DNA from: Candidatus Woesearchaeota archaeon
Lineage (GTDB): Archaea > Nanobdellota > Nanobdellia > Woesearchaeales > JACPIF01
NCBI GenBank assembly: GCA_016188215.1
Contig: JACPIF010000010.1
Location: forward strand, 43,174 to 107,173
Length of the DNA: 64,000 nt
Direction of reading: 5' to 3'
How positions within the stretch are numbered: position 1 is the stretch's first letter; every line of letters begins with the position of its first letter. A program made the position numbers and the translations under genes. Positions 8,313 to 63,381 of this stretch are shown here, one piece after another. Below the pieces are notes generated by a model. It was given only the letters and a program-made list of their open reading frames with translations. It ran no database searches and was not told the DNA's origin.

Positions 8313-8471
8313 AAGGGTAAACTATAACAAAGAGCAACGGGTTGAGCTGTGTGGTATGTGTCCTCCGTTATCGGTAGAACCACAAAAGTACGGAGGACTT
8401 GTTGAAGTGCACAGTTGGTGCTCGTTGTGCAAAAGAGTAGTTTTCCAAATAAAGACTATGGAGGTATAACC

Positions 8472-12002: not shown

Positions 12003-12060
12003 AAGGCTCAAAAACAAGAAATAGTTTATAAATGTTAGTTTTAGCCCCGTGTCTAAGGAA

Positions 12061-12852
12061 TTATAGCAAGTCTGCAAGCTTTTTAATATCCCTGTTCGCG
12101 ACGTGCGTATAAATCTGTGTAGTCTGCAAATTTGAGTGCCCCAGCAGCTTCTGGATATGCCTTATATCAGCGCCTGCTTCCAGCAGATGCGTTGCAAAGC
12201 TGTGCCTAAAAGTATGTGGAGTCACTCTTTTCCTTATGCCTGCTCTTTTTGCCGCATTCTTTACGATCATCTGGATAGACCGTTTATTGTATTTTCTCCC
12301 AAGATTTGAGACAAGCGCAAGACCTTCTCTTTTCAAATTAAAATATTCAATAAATTCTTTCAATTTGCCATGCAGAAAGATTATCCTCTCCTTTCCGCCC
12401 TTGGCTGTCTTAAGGTGGATTATGTCTCTCTTAAAATCTATGTCTTCCCACTCCAGATTAACCAGTTCGCTAAGCCTTATGCCAGTGTAATAAAGGGACA
12501 TCAAGACCAGCCTGTGCCTTAAGTTCAGCGTAGTCTCGAGCATGCCATTAACTTCCTCTTTGCTCAATACCAGAGGCAGCTTTCCCCTGCTCCTGGCAAG
12601 AGGTATATTCTCATCAAACTTCTGTCCCAGAATGTTCCCGTAAAAGAACTTCAAGGCAAAATACGCGCTCCTTATGCTGGACCTGCTCTTTTCAGTATAT
12701 CCTAACAGGAATTCCCTTGGCTGCAGGCCTGATCTGATAAACTTTCTTATTAAATAAAGGTAAGCCCTCTCAGTCTGCCTTGAATATTTCCTGAGCCTCA
12801 GCTCTTCCAGCAGCTTATCCAAATAAGCCTGATCATCCCCCATCAATCCCAT
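12061..12852 (-). CDS. xerA: tyrosine recombinase (XerA/XerC/XerD family)
   Basis: The C-terminal catalytic motifs are HTFRHSFATHLLEAGADIRHIQKLLGHSNLQTTQIYTH. The N-terminal core-binding domain is present. Confidence 0.8.
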   Translation of the reverse strand: MGLMGDDQAYLDKLLEELRLRKYSRQTERAYLYLIRKFIRSGLQPREFLLGYTEKSRSSIRSAYFALKFFYGNILGQKFDENIPLARSRGKLPLVLSKEEVNGMLETTLNLRHRLVLMSLYYTGIRLSELVNLEWEDIDFKRDIIHLKTAKGGKERIIFLHGKLKEFIEYFNLKREGLALVSNLGRKYNKRSIQMIVKNAAKRAGIRKRVTPHTFRHSFATHLLEAGADIRHIQKLLGHSNLQTTQIYTHVANRDIKKLADLL

Positions 12853-14462: not shown

Positions 14463-14463
14463 T

Positions 14464-14913
14464 TCATAACCACTTAAAAGACTCTCTGACTTCCTGATTA
14501 TTTTTCAGCTTTATAAATACTAAGCCAAGTATGATTACAATTACCATTACAAGAAAGCTTCCATAAAAAAATCTGTTTAAGAGATGTAAAATATATTGTT
14601 TAATAGTGGGGTCGGAATAAGGAAATAAAAATACCCTAAAAACAAAAGCTTTTAGTCCATGGATTATAAAAGAGTATAATATTCCCAAAAACAAAACATT
14701 TTTTATATTAAAATTGTAGTATAAAGTAAGCTTAACCACAGACAAAGCAACCATTATTGCCCATAAAGCCTGTGTCAGATTTAATATATAAGGATAGTTT
14801 CTGCTTAGTGGAAGCACAACATAATATTGCGATACAACAACCAAAATAGCAATAAGAATATAATATCTTATTGGCCAAATATACTCTTTTAAAGTTTTTC
14901 CAAATATTTTCAT
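14464..14913 (-). CDS. membrane protein, unknown function (4 TM)
   Basis: Only hydrophobic helices are seen. The stop overlaps the start of the upstream gene. Confidence 0.4.
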   Translation of the reverse strand: MKIFGKTLKEYIWPIRYYILIAILVVVSQYYVVLPLSRNYPYILNLTQALWAIMVALSVVKLTLYYNFNIKNVLFLGILYSFIIHGLKAFVFRVFLFPYSDPTIKQYILHLLNRFFYGSFLVMVIVIILGLVFIKLKNNQEVRESFKWL

Positions 14914-16637
14914 TTTCCAAACAGACTCCTTAAAAAATCAATAATTTTCTCAAAAAATCCCTTCTTTTGAATCTCAGTATCCCTATTGTCTATTTCGTCT
15001 TTATCATTTAATCTATCACTCTTTTCAATAAGTTCTTCATTTAAATCACAGTTTTCTCCACAACAATCTTTATAACAGTTTTCTTTTGTTTCAGAACCTT
15101 CGCACATTCCATCCCCACAGATAGATTCTTTTATTATTGCATCTGCCTCCTTAGCAATTTCTTCCTTTAACCCTTTTTCTGGATTATATATGGGATGATG
15201 CCCTTCAGATAGATATTGGGCAGCACCAGTTCCAGCCACAATATAGGTGCCGTCGACAGAGATTGCAACGCTAGCAACCCATGAATCAGTTTTATAATTC
15301 CATATAGGAATTTTGCTTTCTTTAGAGAGAAGATAGACATTTTTATCCTTGCTTCCCGCAGCGATATAATTTCCGTCTTGCGAGATAGAAACATAACCAA
15401 CTCTTTCATCAGCCTCAAACTTCCATAACGGTTGATCTTTGTCTTTATCAATTAAATATATGTTATGGTCTCCGCTTCCAACAGCTATATACTTACCATT
15501 AGAAGATATATCTACAGAGCGAACCCACCAATCGGTTGTCCAGGTTTTTAAAGGAGTATTTTTATCATTTAAGAAAAGAAAAATTGAAGTGTATGTATTT
15601 GCACTATCCAACCCATAGATAGTATATTTTCCATCTCTTGACATTGCTGCAGTCCAGACAGGAGCATCCGGGCTGGTCTTAAACTTTGTTAAGGGAACAT
15701 TGTTTTCTATAGAAAAGAGATATGCCATCTCTTCGGGAGAATGAGAGCCAGCAGCAACTAATCTGCCATCAGAAGAAACAGACAAGCCATGGACATCCGA
15801 TGTTGCTTGGTATTTCCAAAGCGGTTTATTGCTCTTCCTAGAAAAGAAGATAAGCTCGTCACTGAATTATGTTCCCACAGCAAGATATTCACCATCAGCA
15901 GAGATAGAAACAGCATAGATACCAATATTATCTTTATATGTCCATACTAATTTTCCACTTTCTGAAAAGAGATTTAAAGATTCACGGCAACCACCAACGA
16001 TATACTTTCCATCAGCAGATATATCAACCCAGCCACTTCCGCCAGAGGGATCTTCTGCTCCAGTCTCGCATTGGTATTTCCATAAAGGCTGATTACTATC
16101 TTTAGAAAAAAAGTAGATATAATTATTTGTTTTTACGGCAATGCGGCTGCCATCATCTGAAATTACGGCATTTTGTACTTGGTTTTTTCCAATATCATAA
16201 CTCCAAAGAGGTTCATTATTTTCTTTAGAGAAGAAATAAATCTTGTTGGTTTCCAATTTTTCAGAAATAATATTAACTGGAGCCAGAGTGCCACCATACC
16301 AAGGTAGTTTAGCAGTCTCTTTTCCATCGCTTGCTTCAAAGCGATAGTCAAAACTATCATTTTGTTTCCAACTGAATTCATATACCACTCCTGTTTTATA
16401 ATTTCCGCTTATCTTTCTCATCTCTTTTGCTTCGGTCCCGGTAAAAATGATTTTGACATACTCTGGAGCATCATCATCTTCATCGGTATAAGTAACCTGG
16501 TAAACAATAAGAGTGCCAGGTGTTGCAACAGGCGGTTCTGCATGTCCCTCTATCAATTTTGGAGGAGAATTAGCAAAGGCAATAGCAGACCCTAAAATTA
16601 GAAATACAATTCCAAAAATAATTGCTTTTTTCACCAT
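14910..16637 (-). pseudogene. secreted WD40/PQQ-like beta-propeller protein interrupted by a single in-frame TAA (15867-15869)
   Basis: ORFs 15867-16637 and 14910-15785 are in the same frame. Translating through gives ..LAVGT*FSDELIFFSRKSNKPLWKYQATSDVHGL(S)VSSDGRLVAAGS.., which continues the repeat pattern (PLWKY/PIWNY, S/DGxYIxxG). The N-terminus has a signal peptide and the C-terminus is a Cys-rich tail. Confidence 0.55.
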
Positions 16638-22724: not shown

Positions 22725-23714
22725 ATGAACATAATTAGAACCCTTGCTGGCAGGTCTCCAGAGCTGAATGGCGTCGTAGCATGGATAAATTCCAAGCCCC
22801 TGTTCCTCAGGAACCTTCATGGCAAGGTAGTATTGATAGATTTCTGGACATACAGCTGCGTTAATTGCTTAAATACAATCCCGCATATGAAGGCATTGCA
22901 TAAAAAATATGCAAAGCATGGGCTTGTTATCATTGGAGTGCACACCCCTGAATTCACATTTGAGAAAAATACGGATAATGTAAAGGCTGCTGTCAAGCGA
23001 TTAGGCATTGAATACCCTGTGGTGGTTGATTCTGAGCTTGAGGTGTGGAATGCATTTGGCAACAGCTATTGGCCAAGGCAATACCTGATCAATAAGGAAG
23101 GTAAGATAATATATGACCACGTAGGTGAAGGGGGTTATGAGGAAATAGAACGGAATGTGAGAAAGGCGCTTGCTGAAGCCGGCGCCAATTTAAATAGGGA
23201 AGCGCAGATTGCAGCCCCTAAAGAAAAAAGCAGGGCAAAGGGATTCCTGTTCATTACGCCAGAGATTTATCTGGGATATGCGCGCAGCAAAGGGTTTGGC
23301 AATGCCAAAGTATGCATTCCCGGAAGCTGTGAGCATTATGTTGATGCAAAGGAGCACGTTGAGCATATCCCTTACCTCCATGGCGACTGGGCGCAGCACA
23401 AGGAATTCTTGGGCCACGAAAAGGGAGAATCTGGCTATATCGCATTAAAATATGTGGCAAGGAAAGCAAACATTGTACTCGGCTCTGCATCAGGAAAGCC
23501 TTACACTATGGCTGTTACCCTTGACGGCAAGCCTGTCCCTAAAAATATGGCTGGAAGCGATATAAAAAGGGATGATAAAACTGGTGCAACCTACATACTG
23601 GTTGACAGGCCGGACATGTACAACCTTACCAGCATCCCGGAATTTGAGAAACATGAGTTAAGGCTTATTACAAATAGTGATGATTGTGCAGCTTATACAT
23701 TTACTTTCAGCTAA
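22725..23714 (+). CDS. thioredoxin-like protein, DipZ-C-type (CxxC = CVNC), soluble paralog of 9943-11052
   Basis: DFWTYSCVNCLNTIPHM..IIGVHTPEFTFEK..YWPRQYLIN is collinear with 9943-11052, including the C-terminal AYTFTF(S/G) end. No TM segment is present. Confidence 0.7.
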   Translation: MNIIRTLAGRSPELNGVVAWINSKPLFLRNLHGKVVLIDFWTYSCVNCLNTIPHMKALHKKYAKHGLVIIGVHTPEFTFEKNTDNVKAAVKRLGIEYPVVVDSELEVWNAFGNSYWPRQYLINKEGKIIYDHVGEGGYEEIERNVRKALAEAGANLNREAQIAAPKEKSRAKGFLFITPEIYLGYARSKGFGNAKVCIPGSCEHYVDAKEHVEHIPYLHGDWAQHKEFLGHEKGESGYIALKYVARKANIVLGSASGKPYTMAVTLDGKPVPKNMAGSDIKRDDKTGATYILVDRPDMYNLTSIPEFEKHELRLITNSDDCAAYTFTFS

Positions 23715-37573: not shown

Positions 37574-39199
37574 TCAGGCAGCCCTCGGAGGCTCTCCCTC
37601 TTTCTTTGCCCTTCGGTACATGAGCCAGGCAACACCAACTGCTATGAAGGTGCTCACGATAAGAATTATGTTCACAGGATTTGAGAATGTCTGCCTTGCA
37701 AATGCTGCAATCTCCCTGACCTGCAGCGTATCCTCTACCTTGTTTGCTATATCGGACACTGTTGCAGATACGTTTGCCTTGTCCTTGAGGCTCTCAACCG
37801 GGATATTAAAATATTTCTCTTCAGGAGGAGTATAAGGGGCTTCAACAAAAAGCTCGTATCTCCTGGTTAAGCTGAGCAGTTGGTCGTATTCAGTCATATA
37901 CTTGACATGTATGGTCACATTAAATGTGGTATTTTCAGTTACCGCAGGTGCAGTAAATGTATCATTGAATACCGTAATGCTTGAATAATTTTGCAGCTTC
38001 ATGTCAAGCGTCTTCTGCACAGCCCGGAATCCTGGCATGCCAGAGCCAACAGAGGCATCAATGCCGTCATAGTAATACTTTTCAGTATTGCTCTTGAGGG
38101 ATGCAGTAATTGTAATGGGCTTGCCTGCAGCAGCATGTGAAGGCGCATTATATATTATCTCAAGGGGTTTTGCTGCGACTGTTACGTTTGCATAGCTTAC
38201 ATACACCTTTTCCAGGCCTTGCACAACATAAGATGCCTTGAGCGGAATAGAGAAGTTTCCCGAGCTTATGGCAAGAAGCCGGACCCATGCAGATATAGCA
38301 TTTCCCTTTGAGAGCTGGCTATCCCATGAAAGCGTATTGCCATCCTTTTCAAACTCATATGTCTTGTTTGCTATCGTAAACCCTTTAGGCACTTCTATAA
38401 CAAATGAAATGCTTTGATTGTCTCCTGCCAACACGTTTCTTACAGAAGCGTTGAGCTCAACATAATCGCCTACTTCAAGAAAATTTGTGGAAACGCTTTT
38501 CTGGATCTCAAAGCTGCCATTCTTGATGTCCAGCTCAATAACGCCAAGAAGAACAGTCTTGTTAGCTACGCCATTATTGTAGCTCAGGTTTCCTGTAATG
38601 CTGAACTTTCCAGCTTCTCCAGGGCGTACTTCGTATGGGCAGCTCAGCCTCTGGTTAGGCGCAAGCTTGCCTTCCCAGGATACAATGCCTGAGCCAAGTG
38701 TGCAGTCGCTCTTCTTAGCCTCCAATGAAAAGCTTGCAGGGAACTTCTGCACGAACGTAACATTAGCTGCTTCCCGCGAGCCGGTGTTCTCAATTGTTGC
38801 TGTTATTGTAAAGGTATCTTCAATGGTACCCTCATCCTTATCTGCAACTTGCGACGCAGTTGCCTCTGCGCTCTGCCGGGTAAGGGTTATATACGCCTTA
38901 TAGTAGCGCTCCTTGGTGATAGGATCAGTGCGGTTGTGCTGCACGTCATCAACGCAGAGCTGAATGAAATCCTCAACATCGCAGAAGGTGGCATAAACCT
39001 TTAGAAGGGTGCCACCAAATTCCAGGACTACATATTTTGGGTCATCGCTCAGCACAAAATTATAGAGCGTTCCGCCAATTGTCATGTTTTCCTGCTTGAT
39101 CCAGCCTTTGATTATTGTTTCATTACCTGCAAAAGCAAAGGAGCTGAATATGCTTAACAGGAAAATAAGAAGGCAGGGCCTCAGGATACACCTTTTCAT
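37574..39199 (-). CDS. cell-surface glycoprotein candidate (signal peptide, DUF11/CARDB-like repeats, C-terminal TM anchor)
   Basis: Start is placed at ATG 39197-39199 (MKRCILRPCLLIFLL..AFAG). There are more than 15 N-x-S/T sequons. The C-terminus has a TM helix plus a basic tail. Confidence 0.55.
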   Translation of the reverse strand: MKRCILRPCLLIFLLSIFSSFAFAGNETIIKGWIKQENMTIGGTLYNFVLSDDPKYVVLEFGGTLLKVYATFCDVEDFIQLCVDDVQHNRTDPITKERYYKAYITLTRQSAEATASQVADKDEGTIEDTFTITATIENTGSREAANVTFVQKFPASFSLEAKKSDCTLGSGIVSWEGKLAPNQRLSCPYEVRPGEAGKFSITGNLSYNNGVANKTVLLGVIELDIKNGSFEIQKSVSTNFLEVGDYVELNASVRNVLAGDNQSISFVIEVPKGFTIANKTYEFEKDGNTLSWDSQLSKGNAISAWVRLLAISSGNFSIPLKASYVVQGLEKVYVSYANVTVAAKPLEIIYNAPSHAAAGKPITITASLKSNTEKYYYDGIDASVGSGMPGFRAVQKTLDMKLQNYSSITVFNDTFTAPAVTENTTFNVTIHVKYMTEYDQLLSLTRRYELFVEAPYTPPEEKYFNIPVESLKDKANVSATVSDIANKVEDTLQVREIAAFARQTFSNPVNIILIVSTFIAVGVAWLMYRRAKKEGEPPRAA

Positions 39200-39227
39200 G
39201 ATATACAAAGGTATGCACTGCTTTAAA

Positions 39228-40067
39228 TTAGTTTCTTTTAACCTGGTACAGCCTTGGAAAGTAAAACCTGTTGAAATAGACTGCAACGTACATAATAACC
39301 AGGAACAGCGCAATCATGATATATAAGTATACTGCGTACTGGAATTCTGTCGTATCCCTGAAGAAGAAATACATGAATGCGCTTCCCGCCAGGTATATGA
39401 TGCTGAAGAGTGTAAGGGCCAGCAAGAGGCTGATATATACTGCAAAATTCCTCAACTTGAATGTAAACCTGAGCGCCTGCTTTATGGATGGCATGATTGA
39501 TTGAGTATTGAAGTAAGCGGCAATCAAAGCATTATAGTATAGATATGCAAGAATGGCTATTGGTATCACGATAATAAGCCTTAGGTACTGGATAAAAACA
39601 GCGCGAACAGAGAACTGTATAATCATCATGACAAAGGTCAGGGCTGCGTAGAGCACAGCACTATTAAGCAACATTATAAAGTATAGCTTCCAGAACTTCC
39701 TGAAATTCAGACTAGTGCCCAGTTTGCTTATTGCAATATCAGTGATGCAATACCTGAAGAAAACCAGGCTGAAGAGCAGCAGCGCAGCATACAGGAGCCT
39801 GAGCCCCTGCAAAGCTATGCCTGTAAGAGGGCCGAATGCCACAGTGATGTAGTACAGCACTGTCTGGTTAAAAGCCATGATAAAAACGTAAGGGATGACG
39901 TAAAGGAATGTAAGTACAGATAATATGTCAAATGCAACAAGAAGCCAGTTGTAATGCCTTAGCTGCTTTATATCAGCATATGAATGGTAGAATTGCGTGC
40001 TTCTGAAACTTTCATTTAGCCTATTGAATATGCTTTGGCTGCCTCTTTTATCTGCCTTTTTTATCAT
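39228..40067 (-). CDS. polytopic membrane protein, unknown function
   Basis: About 7 hydrophobic helices are predicted. Confidence 0.45.
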   Translation of the reverse strand: MIKKADKRGSQSIFNRLNESFRSTQFYHSYADIKQLRHYNWLLVAFDILSVLTFLYVIPYVFIMAFNQTVLYYITVAFGPLTGIALQGLRLLYAALLLFSLVFFRYCITDIAISKLGTSLNFRKFWKLYFIMLLNSAVLYAALTFVMMIIQFSVRAVFIQYLRLIIVIPIAILAYLYYNALIAAYFNTQSIMPSIKQALRFTFKLRNFAVYISLLLALTLFSIIYLAGSAFMYFFFRDTTEFQYAVYLYIMIALFLVIMYVAVYFNRFYFPRLYQVKRN

Positions 40068-40075
40068 CTCTAAAC

Positions 40076-41074
40076 CTATTTGAGCTTGAGCTTTAAATTC
40101 TTATCTTTTTGCTTGCTGGACTGCCTGGCCTTGCCACTTCTTCTCCAAAAGTAGACCATCAATATAATAAATGCTGCCAACAGCAGCCCGCCAAGGATAT
40201 TGCCGAGAGCAGAGCCGAACAGTTTGCGCTGCCAGTCATAGAAGAGCAATTTGCCGCCGAACATGCTGAAGGCATTGAACTTCCAGGTTCCTCTGTAAAC
40301 GTAGATGATAACTCCCATTGCGATTAAAAGCAAGCCTCCGAGCATGTTGCTTGAATTAAATGCAAACCTGCCAAGATAGATTGTCTTGCCGCGCATCCAG
40401 GGCTTGCTTCCAAGATCATAGCGGTCATATAATCCTGCTATGATGAACAATGGGACAAGAATACCTATCCCGTAAAAGAAGAATAGCAATGTTGCATAGA
40501 AGAAATTGTGCAAATAAGTTGCCATGACAAGAATTCCTACTAAGATAGGCCCTAAACAGGCGCTCCACCCAACAACAAAGAACATACCTAGAAGGTACAT
40601 GCCAAGGTAATCATGCCTGAACCTTCCGGGCTTGATGAACGAGGAAAATCCTTTGCCAAAGAACAGCATTATGCCTAAAGCAATAAGAAGCAGCCCGGAC
40701 ACCTGGGGCAATATGGATGACTCTTCCTGTAAAAAGAGAAATGATTTTCCTATATAGGCTGCAATTAAGCCGAGAGCTATAAACACTGTCATAAACCCGG
40801 CAGAAAATGCAAGCATTACCCTAAAGATATCCTTCTTTTCCTTAAAGGTAAATGCGAAGAAAGCAGGAAGTGTAGTTGCAGTGCATGGGCTCAGCAAGCT
40901 GATGAATCCTGCAAGGAAAGCTATGAGGAATGATATGTTCCTCACATTAGCTTCAGCATCCTGCTGGTTTGATGCCATGGCATTCAGCAGGCTCTGCGGC
41001 AGCTGCTGGGGATATGCAATCGGTATAAATAATAAGACAAGAAATAAAAAAATAACTATATTTTTGGTTTTCAT
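40076..41074 (-). CDS. DsbD/CcdA-family transmembrane disulfide electron transporter (extended)
   Basis: A signal peptide is followed by LSPCTATTLPAFFAF and a second conserved Cys (WSACLGPILVG). Confidence 0.7.
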   Translation of the reverse strand: MKTKNIVIFLFLVLLFIPIAYPQQLPQSLLNAMASNQQDAEANVRNISFLIAFLAGFISLLSPCTATTLPAFFAFTFKEKKDIFRVMLAFSAGFMTVFIALGLIAAYIGKSFLFLQEESSILPQVSGLLLIALGIMLFFGKGFSSFIKPGRFRHDYLGMYLLGMFFVVGWSACLGPILVGILVMATYLHNFFYATLLFFFYGIGILVPLFIIAGLYDRYDLGSKPWMRGKTIYLGRFAFNSSNMLGGLLLIAMGVIIYVYRGTWKFNAFSMFGGKLLFYDWQRKLFGSALGNILGGLLLAAFIILMVYFWRRSGKARQSSKQKDKNLKLKLK

Positions 41075-41528: not shown

Positions 41529-42767
41529 CTATTGAGCCTGCGGCTGCGGCTCAACAACCTTATTGCTCTTTAGATCCTTATAAGTGCCCAGCGCTTCAGT
41601 AAACCTGAACACATAAACAGCCTCACCAGTGGCTGTATCGTTAGTTGCGGTGCCGACCTCTTTCCATAGTTCCACCACCTGCGGATAGGCTTCCAAATCA
41701 TTGGAAAGGAAAATTGTAGGAACCTTTGTTATATTATAATTCTGCAGGAATCTTTTGCCTTCATTTGATGAGATATCATATGTGTGCTCATCCCCTGTTG
41801 TGACCCCTAAGCTAGCCAATATCTGCTTGTGAAGGGCAGCATCATAGCATGCAGTGCAGCTTTTGTCAGTGATATAGGTTATATCAACCAACCCCACAAT
41901 ATCTTTTTTCTGCAGGTCATAGTAAGGCATGGCGACTTCCCGTAATATATATGAGCCGTCTGCTTCATGCGTTCCTACTGCAGCCCAGTTCTGCTGTACA
42001 GCCTCATAATCGCCAATGCTGTCGCTGAACACCAATGCAGGCAATTTCTTTATGCTATACTTGCTGAGCAGCTGCTGCCCTTCCTTTGAAGAGGCTTCAT
42101 ATTTTTTTTCATCATTGATATAAACGCCGGCTGCCTTAGCCTGCACCAGGAATTCATTCAGGTCAGTGCAGTTTCTGCAACCATCCTTAAATATAAGGAC
42201 AGCACTTACCACACCTTTCAGGCTGCCTGTCTTCAAGTCAATGTACGGCGCAGGGGTTGCAAGGACATAAGCATCATCCCTTTTCTCAAGCTGCTGTGCC
42301 AGGCCGCTCTTTTCAACCTCGCCGGTTACTATCAACGCAGGGATACGCTCAATGCTATATTGTGCTATAAGCTCCCGGGCCTGCGCATCGTTTCTCTCAT
42401 AAACTGTTTCTTTTGTTACAGTAACCTTGCCTTCCTTGAGCAATTCTACAAGCCTTTCAAGCGCAACGCAGTTTGTGCAGCTGCTGTCTTTAATAGTGAC
42501 AAACTGGAGCTGCGCCGGCTTTGACTGCTCCTCAGCCTGTGCAACTGTATTTTTTATCTGGCCCTGCAATATAAACAGGATTATCACATTGACAATCAAT
42601 ATGGCTGCAAGCCCTATAAGAAGGACGTTTCTCCAGTTTTCCCAGTCAAACTGCTTATCCCTAGCCATTGGCTCCAGGCGCTTTTCGTGTTTCAAACCTC
42701 CTGGTTTGAGACTAGGAACAAAGTTCCTATGCTTCATTTTATGCCCTTTCTGCTTTCCAGTATCCAT
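41529..42767 (-). CDS. membrane-anchored protein with three tandem thioredoxin-fold CxxC modules
   Basis: A TM anchor is followed by three repeats: SCTNC..RIPALIVTGE, GCRNC..KLPALVFSD and SCTACYDA..KVPTIFLSN. Confidence 0.55.
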   Translation of the reverse strand: MDTGKQKGHKMKHRNFVPSLKPGGLKHEKRLEPMARDKQFDWENWRNVLLIGLAAILIVNVIILFILQGQIKNTVAQAEEQSKPAQLQFVTIKDSSCTNCVALERLVELLKEGKVTVTKETVYERNDAQARELIAQYSIERIPALIVTGEVEKSGLAQQLEKRDDAYVLATPAPYIDLKTGSLKGVVSAVLIFKDGCRNCTDLNEFLVQAKAAGVYINDEKKYEASSKEGQQLLSKYSIKKLPALVFSDSIGDYEAVQQNWAAVGTHEADGSYILREVAMPYYDLQKKDIVGLVDITYITDKSCTACYDAALHKQILASLGVTTGDEHTYDISSNEGKRFLQNYNITKVPTIFLSNDLEAYPQVVELWKEVGTATNDTATGEAVYVFRFTEALGTYKDLKSNKVVEPQPQAQ

Positions 42768-48725: not shown

Positions 48726-49133
48726 TTATATTAAAGAGAATAAAACAGCAATCATGAGATTAATAGCAGCAGAGCCCAAACATACCATGCATCTAGTCTT
48801 TAGCTTTGCTACCAGAATGTATGTCAGATATAGGGACATGGCTGCTACGAACCACACTAATGCCAGAAAGGGAATCCTGTATCCGCTATCAGTAAAGAAC
48901 AGGGTAAAGCTTACTGCAATCAGCGCAGCGTAATAAAAAACTGAGAGCACATAATTTGGCACATAGAATATGCGCGCATACCTTGTTTTGACCAGTGAGG
49001 TACACTTGTCTCCTGCACACAGCATTGTATGCCTGTGCTCTTCTTTTCTGAGATGGTGCGTATAGATGAAATGCGCATTAAGCAGGAAGCCGAGGAGTGC
49101 AAGGGCTCTGATGGTATAAATAGGCAACGCCAT
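48726..49133 (-). CDS. vitamin K epoxide reductase (VKOR)-family thiol oxidoreductase
   Basis: It has the loop Cys pair CAGDKC and the TM4 active site CMVCLGSA, with 4 TM helices. Confidence 0.6.
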   Translation of the reverse strand: MALPIYTIRALALLGFLLNAHFIYTHHLRKEEHRHTMLCAGDKCTSLVKTRYARIFYVPNYVLSVFYYAALIAVSFTLFFTDSGYRIPFLALVWFVAAMSLYLTYILVAKLKTRCMVCLGSAAINLMIAVLFSLI

Positions 49134-58468: not shown

Positions 58469-58509
58469 GAATAGAAATCTTTAATAGCTAGTTCAAGGAT
58501 GATTACCCC

Positions 58510-60102
58510 ATGGGTAAAAGAGGGCAGGCTGCTTTAGAATTCTTGATGAATTACGGTATTGCTATAATGGTTGTCCTTATCGCGCTTGGGGCTTTGGCTT
58601 ATTTCGGTCTCTTGAATCCTGCAAAGATATTGCCTTCTGCTTGCTTTCTTGAGCCTGGGCTTGCGTGCATTGAGACGAAGGTGAACAGGGATTCAGTTGT
58701 GCTAAGGATCCGCAATGGAAAGGGGGAAAACCTGAATATCAGCAGTATCAAAGTTGCAAACTGCAACGGCTCAGCCTCAGGATACTTAAAAGATGGCACA
58801 GTCGGAGAGTACATCATAGGCAGCTGCAACAATAATCCCAATTTTAAGTATTCAAGCACCATAAACATCACGTATGCCGGACAGAAAAGCGACGTGGTCC
58901 ATGCAAAGATAGGGAGCATCGTGGACACTGTTGAGAATAACTGCGGCAACGGGACTAACTGCGGATGCCTTGACATTGACACAAGCTGCGGGGCTTACCC
59001 AAGCTGCAATAACTGCAATGCACAGGATTCCTATTCTGCAAATTACTGTACTGGAGCTGACGTGTATAGGGATTTCTTTAACTATGGCTGCGCAAGCCAG
59101 GCATGCGCCCTTACAACAACGCCTGAATTACTGCAGAGCTGTACTGGAGGAACGTGCTCTGGAGGCTCATGCGCTTGTCTGGGAACAGATATTAATTGTG
59201 GTACTTATCCTGGGTGCAATAACTGCAATAACCTGGATTCGTATTCAGCTAATTACTGCAATGGTAATTCAGTTTATAAGAATTTCACTAATTACGGATG
59301 TGCAAGCCAGACCTGTTCATCAACAACAACTCCTGAACTGCAGCAGAACTGTGCAGGAAGCAATGGGATCTGCCAAAATGGCGCGTGCAGCTGTGCAAAT
59401 TCTGATGCCAGTTGCGGAACATACCCAAGCTGCAATAATTGTGCCTCAAATAATGGAAAATGCCAGTCAGGATCCTGTGCATGCTCAAACACACAATCAA
59501 GCTGCGGAACTTATCCAAGCTGCTCAGCATGCGGCGCAAACCAGGCCTGCCAAGGCAATCAATGCGTCACGACAAGCTGCTCTGACGGGACCCCTGTCAA
59601 TACCTGCTCTGCTACTAAACCGCAGTACTGCAATTCCGGCGGAACTTTAGTCAATAGCTGCAGCACGTGCGGTTGTCCTTCAGGCAAAGTATGCCAAGGA
59701 GATGGGAGTTGTGTGAATGCAGTTGCTCAGTTTAGTGCGAGTTATAGTAACCTTTGCCCAAATTGTGGAAGTCAACCACCTGGTTATCCTGGTTCGCCTT
59801 ATAATTGGTGGAATTTTGATACAACTCTACGAGAGACTGGTGGTATCATTGGGGTTACTGTTAATCAAAGACAAAAATGTTTCAACAGTAATGTTTATGG
59901 TAGCTGGTGCGACCCAGTAAAGACTGATATTTCGATAAGATTTGGAACTAATTCTATCCTAGCGGGAGGACAAATTGTATGGAATAATAATGCTGTCTGG
60001 TTTTATCCCGGGCAAACTGTAACAGTAACAGAAACCTTTTGGGGAGTTGATGGAAACAGTAATAATGTGCAAGCTAGTTATAGTTTTAATGTAGTTTCAT
60101 AA
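58510..60102 (+). CDS. archaeal type IV pilin-like (class III signal peptide) protein fused to tandem Cys-rich repeat modules
   Basis: The N-terminus MGKRGQAALEFLMNYGIAIMVVLIALGALAYF is the class III signal pattern. Repeated modules follow, CG.YP.CNNCN..DSYSANYC.G..VY..F.NYGCASQ.C..TTTPEL, and then shorter SCGTYPSC units. The C-terminus is a CVNAVA module. Confidence 0.6.
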   Translation: MGKRGQAALEFLMNYGIAIMVVLIALGALAYFGLLNPAKILPSACFLEPGLACIETKVNRDSVVLRIRNGKGENLNISSIKVANCNGSASGYLKDGTVGEYIIGSCNNNPNFKYSSTINITYAGQKSDVVHAKIGSIVDTVENNCGNGTNCGCLDIDTSCGAYPSCNNCNAQDSYSANYCTGADVYRDFFNYGCASQACALTTTPELLQSCTGGTCSGGSCACLGTDINCGTYPGCNNCNNLDSYSANYCNGNSVYKNFTNYGCASQTCSSTTTPELQQNCAGSNGICQNGACSCANSDASCGTYPSCNNCASNNGKCQSGSCACSNTQSSCGTYPSCSACGANQACQGNQCVTTSCSDGTPVNTCSATKPQYCNSGGTLVNSCSTCGCPSGKVCQGDGSCVNAVAQFSASYSNLCPNCGSQPPGYPGSPYNWWNFDTTLRETGGIIGVTVNQRQKCFNSNVYGSWCDPVKTDISIRFGTNSILAGGQIVWNNNAVWFYPGQTVTVTETFWGVDGNSNNVQASYSFNVVS

Positions 60103-60104
60103 AA

Positions 60105-62717
60105 ATTGGAAAAAGAGGTAAGTCTCAGATAGCCGGAAATCCGATTCTTGCGTTGTTCTTTGCTGCAGGATTTATACTTATTGCAATCTTTGGATTCAAG
60201 GCGTACCATTACATTAAAGATAGCCAGTGCAGGGCCGCTCTTGTCAATCTACAGAGCAATGTAAGGTCTGATTTCATTGAATTGGCTTCAAGGCAAGGTT
60301 CAGTCAAGCAGAAATCATATGTCTACGGGTGTGATACCGATGCTATCTACTTTGTTGATGCTGCTCAGAATATTCCTCAAGATGCTTTTAACCGCAGCGC
60401 TGAGATCCAGAACAGCCTTTTCGGCAGCACAACTGACAACCTTTTTATTCTAAGAAAAGGCAAACTGTTCGCATCATTCAATATTGGTCAGCTCTCCCTT
60501 TCTCATCCGCATTACCGCTGCTTCAACACGACAGCTATTAAAAAGCTTGACATGCTGGTCCAAGGCGAAGGAAATGCAGTTTCTATTGAGCACACTGAAA
60601 ACTTTAAAGGCTCTGGATACGATTGCACTGACCATGAACTTCCGGAAGAGATTGCTGTCCAGCCGTCCATTGAAAAGGCAAGCAATATTATAGGGAATTC
60701 TGCTGATTATCTTGGGAGGACGTTTGACCTGGATCAAAGGCAGGCTATTGAACGGTTTAACGAGACGCAAGAAAGGGTTGAGATTGACCGCGAGTTCCAG
60801 GTTTTAGAGGGCGGGACAAAGGTAAAGATAAGTGCAGATCCAGTTATAGCATGGCACTTCGCTTCAATAGAAGGCAGGCAGGAAGCTAGCTATTTCATAC
60901 CTGATGTGGAGCTTAAAGAACGCTGCAAAGATTTGATTGATGGTGTTGGTCTTGCAGAGAATTTTGTGGATAGCATAGAAAAGATAGAAAATAATCCTCC
61001 TATACTTGCTGTGCCAAATCTTGTGCTTACAGAAGATACAAAACTGGTGGTTGATCTCAGCCGGTATATCTCGGATCCTGATACTAATAAAAAGGAGCTT
61101 ATTGCATCTATTGCCACTCCAACAAATATGCAGGCTATTATGAATGGCTTTACCCTAACACTTATTCCAAATCCTAATTGGTATGGAACTGAAACATTGT
61201 ATATCACTACAAGGGACGAAGCTGAGGCCACAACACAACAGATAACAGCTACTGTAGAGGCAGTTAATGATGCTCCTGTAATAACATCAACTCCTTTAAC
61301 ACAGATTGCCCAATATCAGGAATATTCATACAAGGTTGCTGCTTCTGATACTGAGCAGGATCCATTGAGCTATTCACTGGTTGAATATCCTGTCGGCATG
61401 TCAATTGATGCAGATGGCGTTATCAGCTGGGTACCACAGGTTTCAGGGAGCTTATCTACAGCCCAGGAATACACTCTTGATGTGCAGCATGTCAATAAAG
61501 CTCCGCAGTTTGCAGCTTTAACTGCAGCTACATTAAAGGGAATTGTAGGCAGCGATAATGGATTTAGGGATAATGTAGTTGCAAACCTTTGGATATTTGT
61601 GGCAGACGATAGTGATACAAAGAAACTCGAATACTCTGTTTCGTCACAGACAAATCCAAATTTGGTTACATGTTTTGTTGATGGCCTGAAAAACTTAGAC
61701 TGTAATGTAAAAAATAATTATGATGGCTACTCAGAGGTTACCTTAAGTGTAAGCGATGGCCAATTTAACGCATATGCTGTTTTAAGAATAAATATTGAAA
61801 AAAGTCTGTGCATTCCAAACGTCTTAAAGAAATGTGAAGACAGCAGAGTATACTGGTTTGATAGCTGTGATATAAAAGGCTCCCTTTACTATGACTGCAA
61901 AAAGAATTGGCTAAGAAATCAGTGCCGTGATGCCAAATGCTGCATCGGAAATGTTTTTTGCCAAGAGCCTATTCAAAGCTGCAAGGATGAATGCAAGCCT
62001 GAAGAAAGGCAGTGCTCCGGCTCAGGCGGCTACAGAGTTTGTGGCGACTCTAACAATGACGGATGCTTTGAATGGGGCTCAGTAACAAGCTGCGGCTCTG
62101 ATCACTGTGATGAATTCGGGAGCTGGTCTTGTAAAGACTCAAAATCAAGAACAAGGTCAAGGACTTGCTACAAGCAAGGCTGTGCTAATGGGAATTGCGA
62201 TTCAGCTCTATGGCAGGACACGCAGACAGAATCTTGCAGCTCAAACCGAGTATGCCTGGCTGGAAACTGTATTGCAGCTTGTATTCCACAGACTTGCTCT
62301 TCTCTTGGCAGGCAATGTGGTAGTTCCCCAGATGGCTGCGGTGGCACTTTGAATTGCGGAGGCTGTACCTCTAGTCAGAGATGTGACAATGGAAAATGTG
62401 TTAATGCTGTTGCAAGTTTAAGCATGGAATTTATCAATATCAATCATCAGCATTCTGATGGAAGGCATTACATTTATCACACTAGAGTTATAAAAGAAAT
62501 TAATGGTATTGGTGTCACACTAACATCCGGCCAGTTATGCATTCAAAATAGTGGATGTAATTCAGCCTCAGTCAATTACAGAATAAACGCAAATAGTCAA
62601 TATGTGTTTGATAATTATTTTTGGACAAGATACTCTTCTGATACATTCACATTAACTTATACCGGAATGGATGATAACGGAAATGCTGTTTCTGTGACAC
62701 AATCCTTTACTCATTAA
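60105..62717 (+). CDS. second pilin-like secreted protein with cadherin-like/putative-Ig domain and Cys-rich C-terminal region; probable non-AUG (ATT) start
   Basis: The ORF-track start is TTG 60153. In-frame upstream codons give (I)GKRGKSQIAGNPILALFFAAGFILIAIFGF, paralleling MGKRGQ.. of the upstream gene. Further in come NDAPVITSTPLTQ..YSYKVAASDTEQDPLSYSL..GMSIDADGVISWVP (a cadherin-like motif) and a C-terminal Cys-rich region that ends GKCVNAVA. Confidence 0.5.
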   Translation: MGKRGKSQIAGNPILALFFAAGFILIAIFGFKAYHYIKDSQCRAALVNLQSNVRSDFIELASRQGSVKQKSYVYGCDTDAIYFVDAAQNIPQDAFNRSAEIQNSLFGSTTDNLFILRKGKLFASFNIGQLSLSHPHYRCFNTTAIKKLDMLVQGEGNAVSIEHTENFKGSGYDCTDHELPEEIAVQPSIEKASNIIGNSADYLGRTFDLDQRQAIERFNETQERVEIDREFQVLEGGTKVKISADPVIAWHFASIEGRQEASYFIPDVELKERCKDLIDGVGLAENFVDSIEKIENNPPILAVPNLVLTEDTKLVVDLSRYISDPDTNKKELIASIATPTNMQAIMNGFTLTLIPNPNWYGTETLYITTRDEAEATTQQITATVEAVNDAPVITSTPLTQIAQYQEYSYKVAASDTEQDPLSYSLVEYPVGMSIDADGVISWVPQVSGSLSTAQEYTLDVQHVNKAPQFAALTAATLKGIVGSDNGFRDNVVANLWIFVADDSDTKKLEYSVSSQTNPNLVTCFVDGLKNLDCNVKNNYDGYSEVTLSVSDGQFNAYAVLRINIEKSLCIPNVLKKCEDSRVYWFDSCDIKGSLYYDCKKNWLRNQCRDAKCCIGNVFCQEPIQSCKDECKPEERQCSGSGGYRVCGDSNNDGCFEWGSVTSCGSDHCDEFGSWSCKDSKSRTRSRTCYKQGCANGNCDSALWQDTQTESCSSNRVCLAGNCIAACIPQTCSSLGRQCGSSPDGCGGTLNCGGCTSSQRCDNGKCVNAVASLSMEFININHQHSDGRHYIYHTRVIKEINGIGVTLTSGQLCIQNSGCNSASVNYRINANSQYVFDNYFWTRYSSDTFTLTYTGMDDNGNAVSVTQSFTH

Positions 62718-62727
62718 ATGGCTAGAA

Positions 62728-63381
62728 CTAAATACCGCCGCCGCCACCTGGACCCACAGGTGCTGGAGTGCTCTGAGGAGTATCATGCCCATGTTTACCG
62801 TTACCACTTAATTCTGCGCCTATTAGACCGTATGCTGTTCCATGTAGTACTGCCTCAATAGGGTTTTTTTCTTTTTTTTTCACAATATTTTCAAATATTT
62901 TACCGATGTACAAAACAGGAGCAAAAATTATACTTCCCCAGAAATGACCTCTCTCCTCTTCTGGTGTCTTGCTATTTTTAATTCTTTCTTTGGCATCATC
63001 TATAACACTCGATGGAGTATCATACAAAAATGTTTTGGGAGCCATTACTGCTCTTATTACAGTTTTTCTAGCAAAATCATAAGGTAAGCGCGCGATTCCT
63101 TCTAAATATTCACCTTCTTTGAATGCAGTATCAATTGATCTATCACTTAGTAAAGAATCCAACACTTTTTGACCTGGATTTTCTTCTTTTATATCTGTTG
63201 CAACGCTAGAACCGCTTGCTAATTGCGGAGAATTTAGTCTAGCAACACCTGCACATCCGTTCAAAACAGTTAATAATGTTACCGTAGCAACTACTTTACC
63301 TAACGGAGAATAAAATCTATCTGAGAGAGTTTTATAGCTTGTATTTGCTGCTTGCATTTTATTATAGCAGATAACTACCAC
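62728..63381 (-). CDS. lipoprotein of unknown function with Gly-rich C-terminus
   Basis: The lipobox is LNGCAG. The C-terminus is PAPVGPGGGGGI. Confidence 0.4.
   Translation of the reverse strand: MVVICYNKMQAANTSYKTLSDRFYSPLGKVVATVTLLTVLNGCAGVARLNSPQLASGSSVATDIKEENPGQKVLDSLLSDRSIDTAFKEGEYLEGIARLPYDFARKTVIRAVMAPKTFLYDTPSSVIDDAKERIKNSKTPEEERGHFWGSIIFAPVLYIGKIFENIVKKKEKNPIEAVLHGTAYGLIGAELSGNGKHGHDTPQSTPAPVGPGGGGGI

What the first reader, a model, noticed from the sequence alone, without database searches (positions are those of the whole stretch)
58510..62717. Two large pilin-headed secreted proteins, a candidate pilus-tip adhesin pair
Both genes begin with an archaeal class-III signal peptide (MGKRGQAALEFLMNYGIAIMVVLIAL.. 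and (I)GKRGKSQIAGNPILALFFAAGFILIAIFGF..). They then extend to 530 and about 870 aa. The first has Cys-dense tandem modules (two about 60-aa near-identical repeats CG.YP.CNNCN..DSYSANYC.G..VY..F.NYGCASQ.C..TTTPEL and four shorter SCGTYPSC units). The second has a cadherin-like/putative-Ig motif (NDAPV..YSYKV.A.D.D.DPLSYSL...P.GMSID..GVISWVP) and its own Cys-rich C-terminal region. Both end with a related CVNAVA-containing module. The second gene has no ATG or GTG where the pilin-like N-terminus begins. An ATT at 60105, 2 nt after the upstream stop, would give (M)GKRGK.. in parallel to the first gene. Giant pilin-fused adhesins would be natural host-attachment factors for an episymbiotic DPANN archaeon.
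Basis: partly seen in the sequence, partly recalled or inferred. Interest (0 to 1): 0.6.

Follow-up and report, generated by a model that had tools for sequence, protein, structure and literature searches.

The report
Archaeal pilin fused to binding modules
In a tiny groundwater archaeon (Woesearchaeota), one gene encodes a complete pilus subunit carrying a long cysteine-rich arm and an unknown end domain, probably to display a sticky module on a filament, while its larger neighbour is not pilin-headed and is a damaged copy here.

Summary
The window comes from a Candidatus Woesearchaeota genome.

**Gene 1 (58510-60102)** is a modular type IV pilin.
- Residues 1-145 form a complete Epd/UPF0333-type archaeal pilin, with leader MGKRG, Gln at +1 and Glu at +5.
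- This pilin part belongs to a family of thousands of stand-alone ~145-aa pilins. About half of those genes lie beside a pilus ATPase and platform genes.
- About 385 residues are grafted on: disulfide-rich modules and an uncharacterised ~125-aa terminal domain.

- Five of six sister assemblies read ATG at 60105-60107, where the window reads ATT. That base is their only difference from the window.
- Its head is not a pilin module. It fails the pilin N-terminal profile.
- Its relatives are never next to pilus genes (0 of 57 loci). They are often fused to, or paired with, an unknown multi-pass membrane protein.
- I read it as a membrane-anchored, cadherin-stalked surface protein that carries the same terminal domain as gene 1.
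- The window allele looks damaged: it lacks the ATG and has two in-frame deletions.

No pilus machinery lies in the 64 kb. Adhesion and tip location are inferred, not shown.

The parts
58480..58486 (+). TATA-like TTTAATA, 24-30 nt upstream of the ORF1 ATG. Possible promoter of the two-gene unit (inferred only).
   Evidence: Read directly. No archaeal promoter tool was available.
58510..60102 (+). ORF1, 530 aa, a modular type IV pilin (NCBI HYV81_04635, annotated 'hypothetical protein').
58510..58617 (+). Class III signal (leader MGKRG, predicted cleavage before Gln6) and hydrophobic helix alpha-1, with Glu at +5.
   Evidence: The motif [KR][SGA]|QAA[LM]EF is shared by 115 of the 120 listed family members. 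The family N-terminal profile scores 58 bits. AF2 predicts a helix at 5-31. Pfam PF04021 scores only 12.4 bits against a cut-off of 23.7.
58510..58944 (+). Complete pilin module (aa 1-145): alpha-1 plus an Ig-like beta-sandwich with four conserved Cys.
   Evidence: At least 6150 profile hits, mostly ~145-aa stand-alone proteins, some named UPF0333. pLDDT is above 90 for residues 41-140. Foldseek hits archaeal pilins 8fk7, 8q30 and 6w8u.
58966..59391 (+). Two 70-aa Cys-rich repeats (aa 153-222 and 223-294), 64% identical.
   Evidence: No Pfam, NCBIfam or PDB sequence match.
59392..59565 (+). Two short Cys-rich units (aa 295-324 and 325-352) that open with the same C..CGTYPSC motif.
59566..59727 (+). 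'CSDGT..CNSG..CGCP' Cys module (aa 353-406). It is repeated three times in homolog P0007 and is present in P0012.
59728..60099 (+). C-terminal beta-rich domain (aa 407-530), starting right after CVNAVA.
   Evidence: AF2 predicts beta strands with pLDDT about 80. A profile of this domain finds 143 cluster representatives, nearly always with the domain at the extreme C-terminus.
60105..60107 (+). ORF2 start codon site. ATT in the window and in L003; ATG in L001, L002, L004, L095 and L096.
   Evidence: It lies 2 nt after the ORF1 stop, so translational coupling is likely (inferred).
60105..62717 (+). ORF2, 870 aa. A stalked surface protein; the window allele is probably defective.
60105..60224 (+). 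KRGKSQ motif plus a single hydrophobic helix. Either a class-III-like signal or a plain membrane anchor; unresolved.
   Evidence: AF2 predicts a helix at 13-39. Relatives start MKKRG|Q. It fails the pilin N-terminal profile and Pfam. The equivalent segment is internal in fused relatives.
60225..60974 (+). ORF2-type membrane-proximal domain. It carries a 117-nt in-frame deletion (junction 60828/60829) that removes a conserved stretch, including a conserved Cys.
   Evidence: The AF2 model here has low confidence.
60990..61805 (+). Three cadherin/Ig-like domains (aa 296-385, 386-470, 500-567). The second has lost 11 residues (FKIKVQVSDGS; junction 61445/61446).
   Evidence: Pfam Big_9 and Cadherin_4. 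pLDDT is above 90 for most of the first domain. Foldseek hits tandem cadherin EC arrays at E 2e-8. The deletion is shown.
61872..62375 (+). Cys-rich spacer region (27 Cys).
   Evidence: AF2 confidence is low.
62376..62714 (+). C-terminal domain of the same family as ORF1's, about 30% identical to it.
   Evidence: The 98%-identical P0017 is hit by the domain profile at E 2.2e-24.

Best explanation
This is a two-gene unit in a Woesearchaeote (DPANN archaeon).

**Gene 1** is a modular type IV pilin.
- It is a complete Epd/UPF0333-type archaeal pilin module.
- Its C-terminus carries six disulfide-rich spacer modules and a ~125-aa beta-rich end domain.
- Proposed path: an EppA-like class III signal peptidase removes MGKRG before Gln6.
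- The hydrophobic helix (Glu at +5) then lets the pilus machinery insert the protein into an Epd-like filament. That machinery is an ATPase plus two platform genes, encoded elsewhere in the genome.
- The rigid cysteine-rich arm holds the end domain away from the filament, where it acts as a binding module.

**Gene 2**, 2 nt downstream, is a stalked surface protein.
- It has a KRG..SQ motif and one membrane helix, then a ~250-aa membrane-proximal domain.
- It continues with three cadherin/Ig-like domains, a cysteine-rich spacer and the same kind of end domain as gene 1.
- Its head is not a pilin module. I lean to the view that the helix anchors it in the membrane rather than putting it in a pilus.
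- In this genome gene 2 is a damaged allele: ATT for ATG, and two in-frame deletions of conserved sequence.

**Shown:** domain anatomy, family membership of the pilin module, linkage of that family to pilus genes, the shared end domain, and the allele differences.

**Inferred:** cleavage, incorporation into a filament, position in the filament, and binding or adhesion.
For: **ORF1 is a pilin**
- A profile of residues 1-145 finds at least 6150 proteins, mostly ~145-aa stand-alone proteins of Woesearchaeota and Nanoarchaeota. JGI names some of them UPF0333.
- The family motif is [KR][SGA]|QAA[LM]EFLMTYGWAI, with leaders of 4-29 residues. ORF1 fits it with a 5-residue leader.
- The family N-terminal profile scores ORF1 at 58 bits.
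- AF2 gives a helix at 5-31 and a beta domain at 44-141, with pLDDT above 90 for residues 41-140.
- Foldseek finds archaeal pilus subunits 8fk7, 8q30 and 6w8u at E 6e-4 to 2e-2.
- Gln at +1 is reported as essential for EppA processing in Methanococcus maripaludis (PMC4390842).

**The pilin family is linked to pilus machinery**
- Stand-alone pilin P0119 follows a T2SSE ATPase and two T2SSF genes, in an operon with five minor-pilin-like genes.
- Of 79 pilin loci from reference genomes, 42 have the ATPase and 45 the platform gene within 10 kb.
- ATPase plus two platform genes is the 'TFF system 1' layout reported for methanogens and DPANN (10.64898/2026.04.22.720090).

**Grafting of binding modules is a habit of this family**
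- 17 of 134 pilin ORFs are longer than 200 aa.
- Their cargo includes Laminin_G_3, polysaccharide lyase, CBM_4_9 and CBM96.

**The end domain behaves as a displayed module**
- It has 143 representatives and sits almost always at the extreme C-terminus.
- It is found behind at least five different class-III-like N-terminal types.

**ORF2**
- Start codon.
- Cadherin-like stalk.
- Deletions.
Against: - No pilus ATPase, platform protein or prepilin peptidase lies in the 64-kb window. The rest of the genome could not be searched.
- ORF1 and its relatives P0007 and P0011 stand outside pilus operons.
- Pfam Class_IIIsignal matches ORF1 only below threshold: 12.4 bits against a cut-off of 23.7.
- The Cys-rich arm is modelled with low confidence.
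- Neither the arm nor the end domain resembles any annotated binding domain. Binding is therefore argued only from position and from analogy.
- For ORF2, both the anchor and the class III reading fit the conserved [KR][GSA]Q motif.
Confidence: 0.6

Rival explanations
1. Both proteins are class-III-processed pilus subunits that sit together at the pilus tip as an adhesin pair for host attachment.
For: - The genes are adjacent and only 2 nt apart. The pair recurs in a second genome, L006.
- Both carry [KR][GS]Q before a hydrophobic helix. Relatives of ORF2 begin MKKRG|Q.
- ORF2 lacks Glu at +5. Tip subunits such as GspK in bacterial systems also lack it (analogy from my own knowledge; GspK's tip location is mentioned in PMC8179133).
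- Both share the end domain.
- In L006 the 3' ~470 nt of the two genes are 91.5% identical, as if they exchange that cassette.
Against: - ORF2's N-terminus gets no score from the pilin N-terminal profile or from Pfam.
- None of 57 loci of its N-domain family has a pilus ATPase, platform or pilin gene nearby. Sixteen of 25 loci with a full N-domain have a fused or adjacent multi-pass membrane protein instead.
- A close relative keeps ORF1 without ORF2.
- ORF2 is disrupted in the window and in L005 (frameshift). Its L006 ortholog is interrupted by an in-frame stop.
- Nothing tests tip location.
Confidence: 0.2
2. ORF1 is processed by the class III peptidase but is not polymerised into a long pilus. 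It would stay as a membrane-anchored or short pseudopilus-type surface protein, like the class-III sugar-binding proteins of the Sulfolobus bindosome.
For: - Class III signals on large non-filament proteins are known in archaea. Examples are the bindosome and the newly reported substrate-binding proteins with such signals (10.64898/2026.04.22.720090).
- ORF1 is encoded away from any pilus operon.
- A 385-residue load may be hard to pack into a filament body (inference).
Against: - ORF1 keeps the whole pilin module, not just the signal. Depending on the alignment, it is 30-57% identical to the stand-alone pilins, and it retains the conserved Cys and Glu at +5.
- Bacterial modular pilins with bulky modules are polymerised through their pilin module (PMC8179133).
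Confidence: 0.25
3. ORF2 in this genome is a recently inactivated pseudogene, and the locus now makes only ORF1.
For: - The start codon reads ATT, in the window and in L003.
- No product of ORF2 is on record from NCBI, whereas ORF1 and the paralog HYV81_01500 are.
- A 39-aa deletion removes a stretch conserved across the wider family, including a Cys. An 11-aa deletion removes part of an Ig-like domain.
- A sister allele (L005) is frameshifted at the same spot.
- An apparently intact paralog, with a different C-terminal cargo, exists in the same genome.
Against: - The frame stays open for 870 codons.
- Most sister assemblies keep ATG.
- Reinitiation on ATT, 2 nt after a stop codon, cannot be excluded.
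- The deletions could be variants tolerated in loops.
- The indel calls rest on assemblies, not on reads.
Confidence: 0.5

Closest known systems
Bacterial modular type IV pilins (Streptococcus sanguinis PilB and PilC, ETEC CofB; PMC8179133)
   Same: - An N-terminal pilin module carries a functional module grafted to its C-terminus.
- The design is used for adhesion to proteins or glycans.
- Relatives of ORF1 even carry ConA-like lectin modules, as PilC does.
   Different: - ORF1's pilin module is of the archaeal Epd/UPF0333 type (Ig-like sandwich, Gln at +1).
- The cargo is unannotated cysteine-rich modules plus an uncharacterised beta domain.
- Nothing has been tested experimentally.
- The published census covered only the bacterial signature IPR012902.
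Epd pili of Methanococcus maripaludis (EpdE and other DUF361/UPF0333 pilins, peptidase EppA; TFF system 1)
   Same: - The [KR]G|Q cleavage motif.
- The name UPF0333 given to family members.
- The operon layout of an ATPase plus two platform genes in relatives.
   Different: - ORF1 is 530 aa rather than a short pilin.
- Pfam PF04021 is matched only below threshold.
- No EppA homolog was looked for or found.
Class-III-signal surface proteins that are not filament subunits (Sulfolobus/Saccharolobus bindosome sugar-binding proteins)
   Same: A class III signal sits on a large functional extracellular protein encoded away from the assembly genes.
   Different: ORF1 has a full pilin fold after the helix and no substrate-binding-protein domain.
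Bacterial Big_9 / cadherin-like 'tandem-95 repeat' surface proteins and cadherin EC arrays
   Same: The centre of ORF2 is three tandem Ig/cadherin-like domains, the usual stalk of adhesins.
   Different: - There are only three domains.
- They are flanked by a family-specific N-domain, a Cys-rich region and the shared end domain.
- No calcium-binding motifs were checked.
Pilus-tip proteins PilY1/PilC and the minor pilin GspK
   Same: They are large proteins proposed to sit at a filament tip. GspK lacks Glu5, as ORF2 does.
   Different: There is no sequence or fold relation. Tip location here is pure analogy.

Membership tests
Type IV pilin / class III signal peptide protein (ORF1) | Short charged leader, [KR]-[GA] before the cleavage site, then about 20 hydrophobic residues (FlaFind-type pattern, quoted from memory). 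| tested here: met
   MGKRG|QAALEFLMNYGIAIMVVLIALGALAYF. RGQAAL fits the strict pattern.
Type IV pilin / class III signal peptide protein (ORF1) | Match to Pfam PF04021 Class_IIIsignal at its curated cut-off. | tested here: not met
   12.4 bits against a cut-off of 23.7, E 0.16, on residues 3-26. Nothing is reported when the longer sequences are scanned. The model is 27 positions long.
Woesearchaeotal UPF0333-type pilin family (ORF1 residues 1-145) | Sequence homology over the whole pilin module, including the N-terminal motif. | tested here: met
   At least 6150 profile hits. Identity to the 120 listed hits is 37-61% by BLASTP and 30-57% in the multiple alignment. The N-terminal profile scores 58 bits. 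The conserved Cys45, Cys53, Cys85 and Cys106 are present.
Type IV pilin fold (ORF1) | A long N-terminal helix followed by a globular beta domain that resembles solved archaeal pilins. | tested here: met
   AF2 gives helix 5-31 and strands 44-141, with pLDDT above 90 for residues 41-140. Foldseek hits 8fk7 at E 6.3e-4, 8q30 at 3e-3 and 6w8u at 1.7e-2.
Type IV pilus component (ORF1) | Assembly ATPase, platform protein and prepilin peptidase present in the same genome. | not testable with these tools
   None are in the 64-kb window. The genome is not among the reference genomes that could be scanned. For the pilin family as a whole, the linkage is met: 42 of 79 loci.
Type IV pilus component (ORF1, ORF2) | Cleavage by the class III signal peptidase and incorporation into a filament. 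| not testable with these tools
   This needs proteomics, biochemistry or imaging.
Modular pilin as defined in PMC8179133 (ORF1) | A pilin module plus at least one extra module not specific to pilus biology, joined at the C-terminus. | tested here: met
   Pilin module at 1-145, Cys-rich modules at 146-406, end domain at 407-530. The same end domain occurs behind other N-terminal types.
Type IV pilin / class III signal peptide protein (ORF2) | Strict FlaFind-type pattern, Pfam PF04021, or the pilin-family N-terminal profile. | tested here: not met
   RGKSQI and KSQIAG both break the strict pattern. There is no Pfam hit and no profile hit even at E 100.
Type IV pilin / class III signal peptide protein (ORF2) | The lineage's own cleavage grammar ([KR][SGA] then Gln) directly before a hydrophobic helix at the N-terminus. 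| tested here: inconclusive
   - For: KS|Q is present, and relatives start MKKRG|Q.
- Against: P0018 and the L006 ortholog have 27-44 extra residues before it.
- Against: in nine loci the segment follows a ~520-aa membrane domain.
Type IV pilus component (ORF2-type N-domain family) | Genomic linkage to pilus assembly or pilin genes. | tested here: not met
   None of 57 metagenome loci has an ATPase, platform or UPF0333 pilin homolog.
Cadherin-like / bacterial Ig-like domain proteins (ORF2 centre) | Pfam Big_9 or Cadherin_4 above the curated cut-off, and an Ig-like fold. | tested here: met
   Big_9 scores 48.1 bits (cut-off 23.6) and Cadherin_4 27.7 bits (cut-off 25.1). Foldseek hits cadherin EC arrays at E 2e-8.

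The most novel reading that the evidence does not exclude
The ~125-aa end domain would be a swappable host- or surface-recognition cassette of DPANN archaea, mounted on several kinds of carrier: a true pilin, minor-pilin-like heads, and the ORF2-type membrane stalk. Neighbouring genes would exchange it by gene conversion, as in L006.

ORF2 would be switched off and on at the population level. The signs are these:
- The only SNP in up to 12 kb across six samples hits its start codon.
- Two different deletions share one breakpoint.
- The ortholog in L006 carries a stop codon.

On this reading, the locus reflects selection on attachment factors of an episymbiont rather than plain decay.
Probability: 0.15. 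Interest if true: 0.7.

Novelty: new variant of a known kind. Interest (0 to 1): 0.45.

Why it matters
How DPANN archaea hold on to other cells or surfaces is largely unknown. The groundwater study of episymbiotic CPR bacteria and DPANN archaea (apparently the source of these samples, though its accession numbers were not found in the paper) states that type IV pilus components are missing in DPANN (10.1101/2020.05.14.094862).

- **Pili are common in these lineages.** Woesearchaeota and Nanoarchaeota carry a very large family of Epd-type pilins. About half of the loci examined lie beside an ATPase and platform genes.
- **Modular pilins exist in archaea.** A minority of these pilins carry grafted modules: lectin-like, carbohydrate-binding, lyase, or, as here, an unknown cysteine-rich arm with an unknown end domain. 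This extends the 'modular pilin' design, documented for bacteria, to archaea.
- **There are concrete targets for experiments.** The end domain and the ORF2-type ectodomain can be used in binding tests.

The finding is not a new principle, and no function has been shown.

Tried and rejected
**Ideas about the ORF2 start**
1. Frameshift or read-through joining ORF1 and ORF2. There is no slippery site at ..GTT TCA TAA AAA.., and a fusion would put the hydrophobic helix mid-protein. Dropped.
2. TTG at 60153 as the start. This would begin inside the hydrophobic helix, without the charged motif. Dropped once ATG alleles were found.
3. My own interim idea that 'ATT GGA' was a frame-shifted remnant of the Trp codon in the ..FSWKRG.. 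of P0018 and L006. Withdrawn. The codons align in frame (ATG GGA against TCG TGG), and sister contigs read ATG.

**Searches that found nothing or could not run**
4. ORF2's N-domain in reference genomes: 84 pattern matches, none confirmed.
5. An exact look-up of the paralog P0018 for its DNA: not on record.
6. Pfam, NCBIfam and PDB sequence searches for the Cys-rich modules and the end domain: nothing.
8. Pilus machinery in the window: none among the ORFs scanned.
9. DNA tandem or direct repeats as a source of the protein repeats: only one weak 49-nt family. The repeats are old and diverged.
10. An annotation for the multi-pass membrane partner of ORF2-type proteins: no Pfam, NCBIfam or PDB match.

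Full report
**What is there**

The region holds two same-strand ORFs. ORF1 runs 58510-60102 (530 aa, ATG start). A second frame is open from 60090 to 62717. Its first canonical start is TTG at 60153, but it reads IGKRGKSQIAGNPILALFF.. from an ATT at 60105, 2 nt after ORF1's TAA.

ORF1 is identical to NCBI protein HYV81_04635, a 'hypothetical protein' of a Candidatus Woesearchaeota archaeon. ORF2 has no exact product on record. Its best matches are:
- a 98%-identical fragment from a sister assembly (P0017);
- a 55%-identical ortholog (P0012);
- a 62%-identical paralog in the same genome, HYV81_01500 (P0018).

**ORF1 is a whole pilin with a load**

Alignment of ORF1's relatives shows a conserved head of about 145 residues, followed by variable tails. 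A profile of that head found at least 6150 proteins among 8000 scored candidates. Nearly all are ~145-aa stand-alone proteins from Woesearchaeota and Nanoarchaeota, and JGI calls some of them 'UPF0333 family'.

- In 115 of the 120 listed hits the N-terminus reads [KR][SGA]-Q-A-A-[LM]-E-F-L-M-T-Y-G-W-A-I after a leader of 4-29 residues; 5 is the most common length. ORF1 (MGKRG|QAALEFLMNYGIAI) fits, with Glu at +5.
- A profile of only this N-terminal stretch scores ORF1 and its orthologs at 45-58 bits.
- Pfam's 27-position Class_IIIsignal model sees ORF1 only weakly: 12.4 bits against a cut-off of 23.7.
- AlphaFold2, with a 132-sequence alignment, gives a helix at 5-31 and a beta domain at 44-141, with pLDDT above 90 for residues 41-140.
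- Foldseek against the PDB returns archaeal pilus subunits: Pyrobaculum 8fk7 at E 6e-4, Sulfolobus Aap 8q30, and 6w8u. It also returns generic Ig-like sandwiches.
- Gln at +1 is reported as essential for the pilin-specific peptidase EppA of Methanococcus maripaludis (PMC4390842).

**That pilin family belongs to pili**

The stand-alone pilin P0119 lies directly after a T2SSE-type ATPase and two T2SSF-type platform genes. A second pilin follows it, and five genes with class-III-like N-termini precede it.

In 79 pilin loci from reference genomes, 42 have a homolog of that ATPase and 45 a platform homolog within the available flanks of up to 10 kb. Among loci with at least 15 kb of sequence, 24 of 37 have the ATPase. 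An ATPase with two platform genes is the 'TFF system 1' (Epd-like) layout, which a 2026 preprint reports for methanogens and DPANN.

**The load**

After the head come several modules:
- two 70-aa cysteine-rich repeats, 64% identical;
- two short units that open with the same C..CGTYPSC motif;
- a 'CSDGT..CGCP' module, which other relatives repeat three times;
- a beta-rich domain of about 125 residues, which starts right after CVNAVA.

None of these matches Pfam, NCBIfam or PDB sequences. The arm is modelled with low confidence and the end domain with pLDDT of about 80.

A profile of the end domain finds 143 cluster representatives in 1.8 billion proteins. The domain is nearly always at the extreme C-terminus. 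Among the better hits of at least 250 aa, 20 of 39 begin with [KR][GAS] plus a hydrophobic helix, and several others are visibly truncated versions of these. There are at least five distinct N-terminal kinds:
- G|QAALEF;
- G|W[IM]RI.E;
- G|QFYL;
- the G|IS.VIG and G|IFFTID kinds;
- the ORF2 kind.

Within the pilin family, 17 of 134 ORFs are longer than 200 aa. Where the cargo can be named, it is Laminin_G_3, polysaccharide lyase, CBM_4_9 or CBM96. This is the 'modular pilin' design described for bacteria, in which a binding module is grafted on a pilin module and is probably shown at the tip (PMC8179133). Binding by ORF1's end domain is inferred from this pattern, not shown.

**ORF2: the start**

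Six per-sample assemblies carry ORF1 unchanged. Each differs from the window at exactly one base, or at none. That base is 60107.
- L001, L002, L004, L095 and L096 read ATG GGA AAA AGA GGT.
- Only L003 shares the window's ATT.

The window carries a start-codon variant.

**ORF2: the body**

Compared with both the paralog and the ortholog, the window lacks 39 residues at 60828/60829. That stretch is conserved across the wider family (..F.Y.E.IPK.C..L..Y..) and includes a Cys.

A sister contig, L005, has a different deletion at the same left breakpoint. It is 34 nt shorter than the full form, so it is frameshifted. The window also lacks 33 nt (FKIKVQVSDGS) inside the second Ig-like domain. The L006 ortholog has an in-frame TGA where the others have a Cys codon.

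Of the versions seen, only the paralog is uninterrupted and retains the 39-residue stretch. Its last ~190 residues are a Pro-rich linker and a different Cys-rich region, without a CVNAVA motif.

**ORF2: is the head pilin-like?**

In outline, yes: it has KRG, then KS|Q, then a hydrophobic helix, and AF2 predicts a helix at 13-39. Wider relatives of its N-domain begin MKKRG|Q.., MFKKRG|Q.. or MKKG|Q...

Several results speak against it:
- It fails the strict FlaFind-type pattern (recalled from memory), Pfam, and the pilin N-terminal profile, even at E 100.
- P0018 and the L006 ortholog carry 27-44 conserved extra residues before the motif.
- Of 57 metagenome loci with this N-domain, none has a pilus ATPase, platform or pilin gene.
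- Instead, an unannotated ~520-aa multi-pass membrane domain is fused in frame upstream of the motif in nine loci. One of these has no Met at the junction. The same domain is encoded divergently next door in seven more loci. Together that is 16 of the 25 loci with a full N-domain.

In those fused proteins the 'head' is an internal membrane helix. I therefore lean to a membrane anchor for ORF2, but the conserved [KR][GA]Q leaves cleavage open.

The rest of ORF2 is three cadherin/Ig-like domains, a Cys-rich region, and an end domain about 30% identical to ORF1's. The evidence for the Ig-like domains is Pfam Big_9 and Cadherin_4 above their cut-offs and Foldseek hits to cadherin EC arrays at E 2e-8.

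**Context**

ORF1 follows the SRP54 gene here and in a relative (L007), where ORF2 is absent. The pair recurs in L006. No pilus ATPase, platform protein or prepilin peptidase is among the window ORFs scanned. The rest of the genome could not be reached. The window does hold many thiol-disulfide genes, which suits proteins with 50 and 39 cysteines.

**Verdict**

ORF1 is a modular type IV pilin of an archaeal, Epd-like kind.
- ORF2 is a cadherin-stalked surface protein with the same end domain. It is probably membrane-anchored rather than pilus-borne, and it is probably defective in this genome.
- A 'tip adhesin pair for host attachment' remains a hypothesis.

The design is known from bacteria, and in outline from archaeal class-III-signal proteins. 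What is new is the archaeal pilin carrier, the uncharacterised arm and end domain, and the membrane-protein link of ORF2-type proteins.

Noticed in passing
window 60107: The single T/G difference at the ORF2 start codon is the only mismatch between the window and five per-sample contigs, which are up to 11.9 kb long. For one random SNP to hit these three bases has a chance of about 3 in 12,000.
   Followed up: yes
window 60828/60829 and 61445/61446; L005 429-511 and 1129-1161: Indel alleles inside ORF2 within one population. The window lacks 117 nt and 33 nt, both in frame. L005 lacks 34 nt relative to the paralog at the same left breakpoint (..AAAGATAA) and is frameshifted.
   Followed up: partly
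window 60428: Four independent contigs (L001, L002, L095, L096) all end at exactly this base, inside ORF2. L005 starts 28 nt before it. This suggests an assembly-graph branch caused by the paralog HYV81_01500 or by strain variants.
   Followed up: no
L006 2803-2805: There is an in-frame TGA in the ORF2 ortholog, at a position where the window and the paralog have a conserved Cys codon. It could be a nonsense mutation or a sequencing error. Recoding was not examined.
   Followed up: no
L006 1719-2187 and 4710-5178: The last ~470 nt of the ORF1-like and ORF2-like genes are 91.5% identical in that genome, while the window's pair shows no DNA similarity. This looks like recent gene conversion of the C-terminal cassette between neighbours.
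   Followed up: partly
L101 8411-9970 (also L103, L104, L105, L107, L108, L109, L113, L122; divergent neighbours in L100, L106, L110, L118-L121): An unannotated ~520-aa multi-pass membrane domain is fused to, or paired with, ORF2-type ectodomains. It has no Pfam, NCBIfam or PDB sequence match, and no homolog in the window.
   Followed up: partly
window 4554-5129, 8415-9230, 9232-9939, 9943-11052, 11049-12077, 22725-23714, 40076-41074, 41529-42767, 48726-49133: The window holds an unusual number of thiol-disulfide genes: thioredoxin/peroxiredoxin-like proteins, two DsbD-type membrane proteins, a thioredoxin-reductase-like flavoprotein and a VKOR. This fits a need to form disulfides in cysteine-rich surface proteins.
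   Followed up: no
window 62728-63381 (minus strand), especially 62870-62882: The downstream ORF has a lipobox-like LLTVLNGC and a Gly-rich C-end. Six mismatches to L005 cluster within 13 nt. The genes at the same position in L006 (5232-6323) and L013 (9495-10928) carry Hint/intein-like domains.
   Followed up: no
L086 8731-9948 and 9992-11854; L021 10001-10915; L020 2191-3090; L032 643-1863: Other members of the same pilin-head family carry polysaccharide lyase, Laminin_G_3 or CBM_4_9 modules. L086 has two such modular pilins in tandem.
   Followed up: partly
P0018 (HYV81_01500, elsewhere in the same genome): The paralog of ORF2 keeps the N-domain and Ig-like domains. It ends in a Pro-rich linker and a different Cys-rich region, with no CVNAVA motif by eye, so the C-terminal cargo appears to have been swapped. 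This was not tested with the end-domain profile.
   Followed up: no
window 12061-12852; 13050-16637; 37574-39313: Other genes noted in the window: a tyrosine integrase, a run of three PQQ/WD40-type beta-propeller proteins, and a 579-aa DUF11 surface-type protein.
   Followed up: no
literature, 10.1101/2020.05.14.094862: The groundwater study of CPR bacteria and DPANN archaea states that type IV pilus components are missing in DPANN genomes. Here, 42 of 79 Woesearchaeota/Nanoarchaeota pilin loci lie next to a T2SSE-type ATPase.
   Followed up: partly
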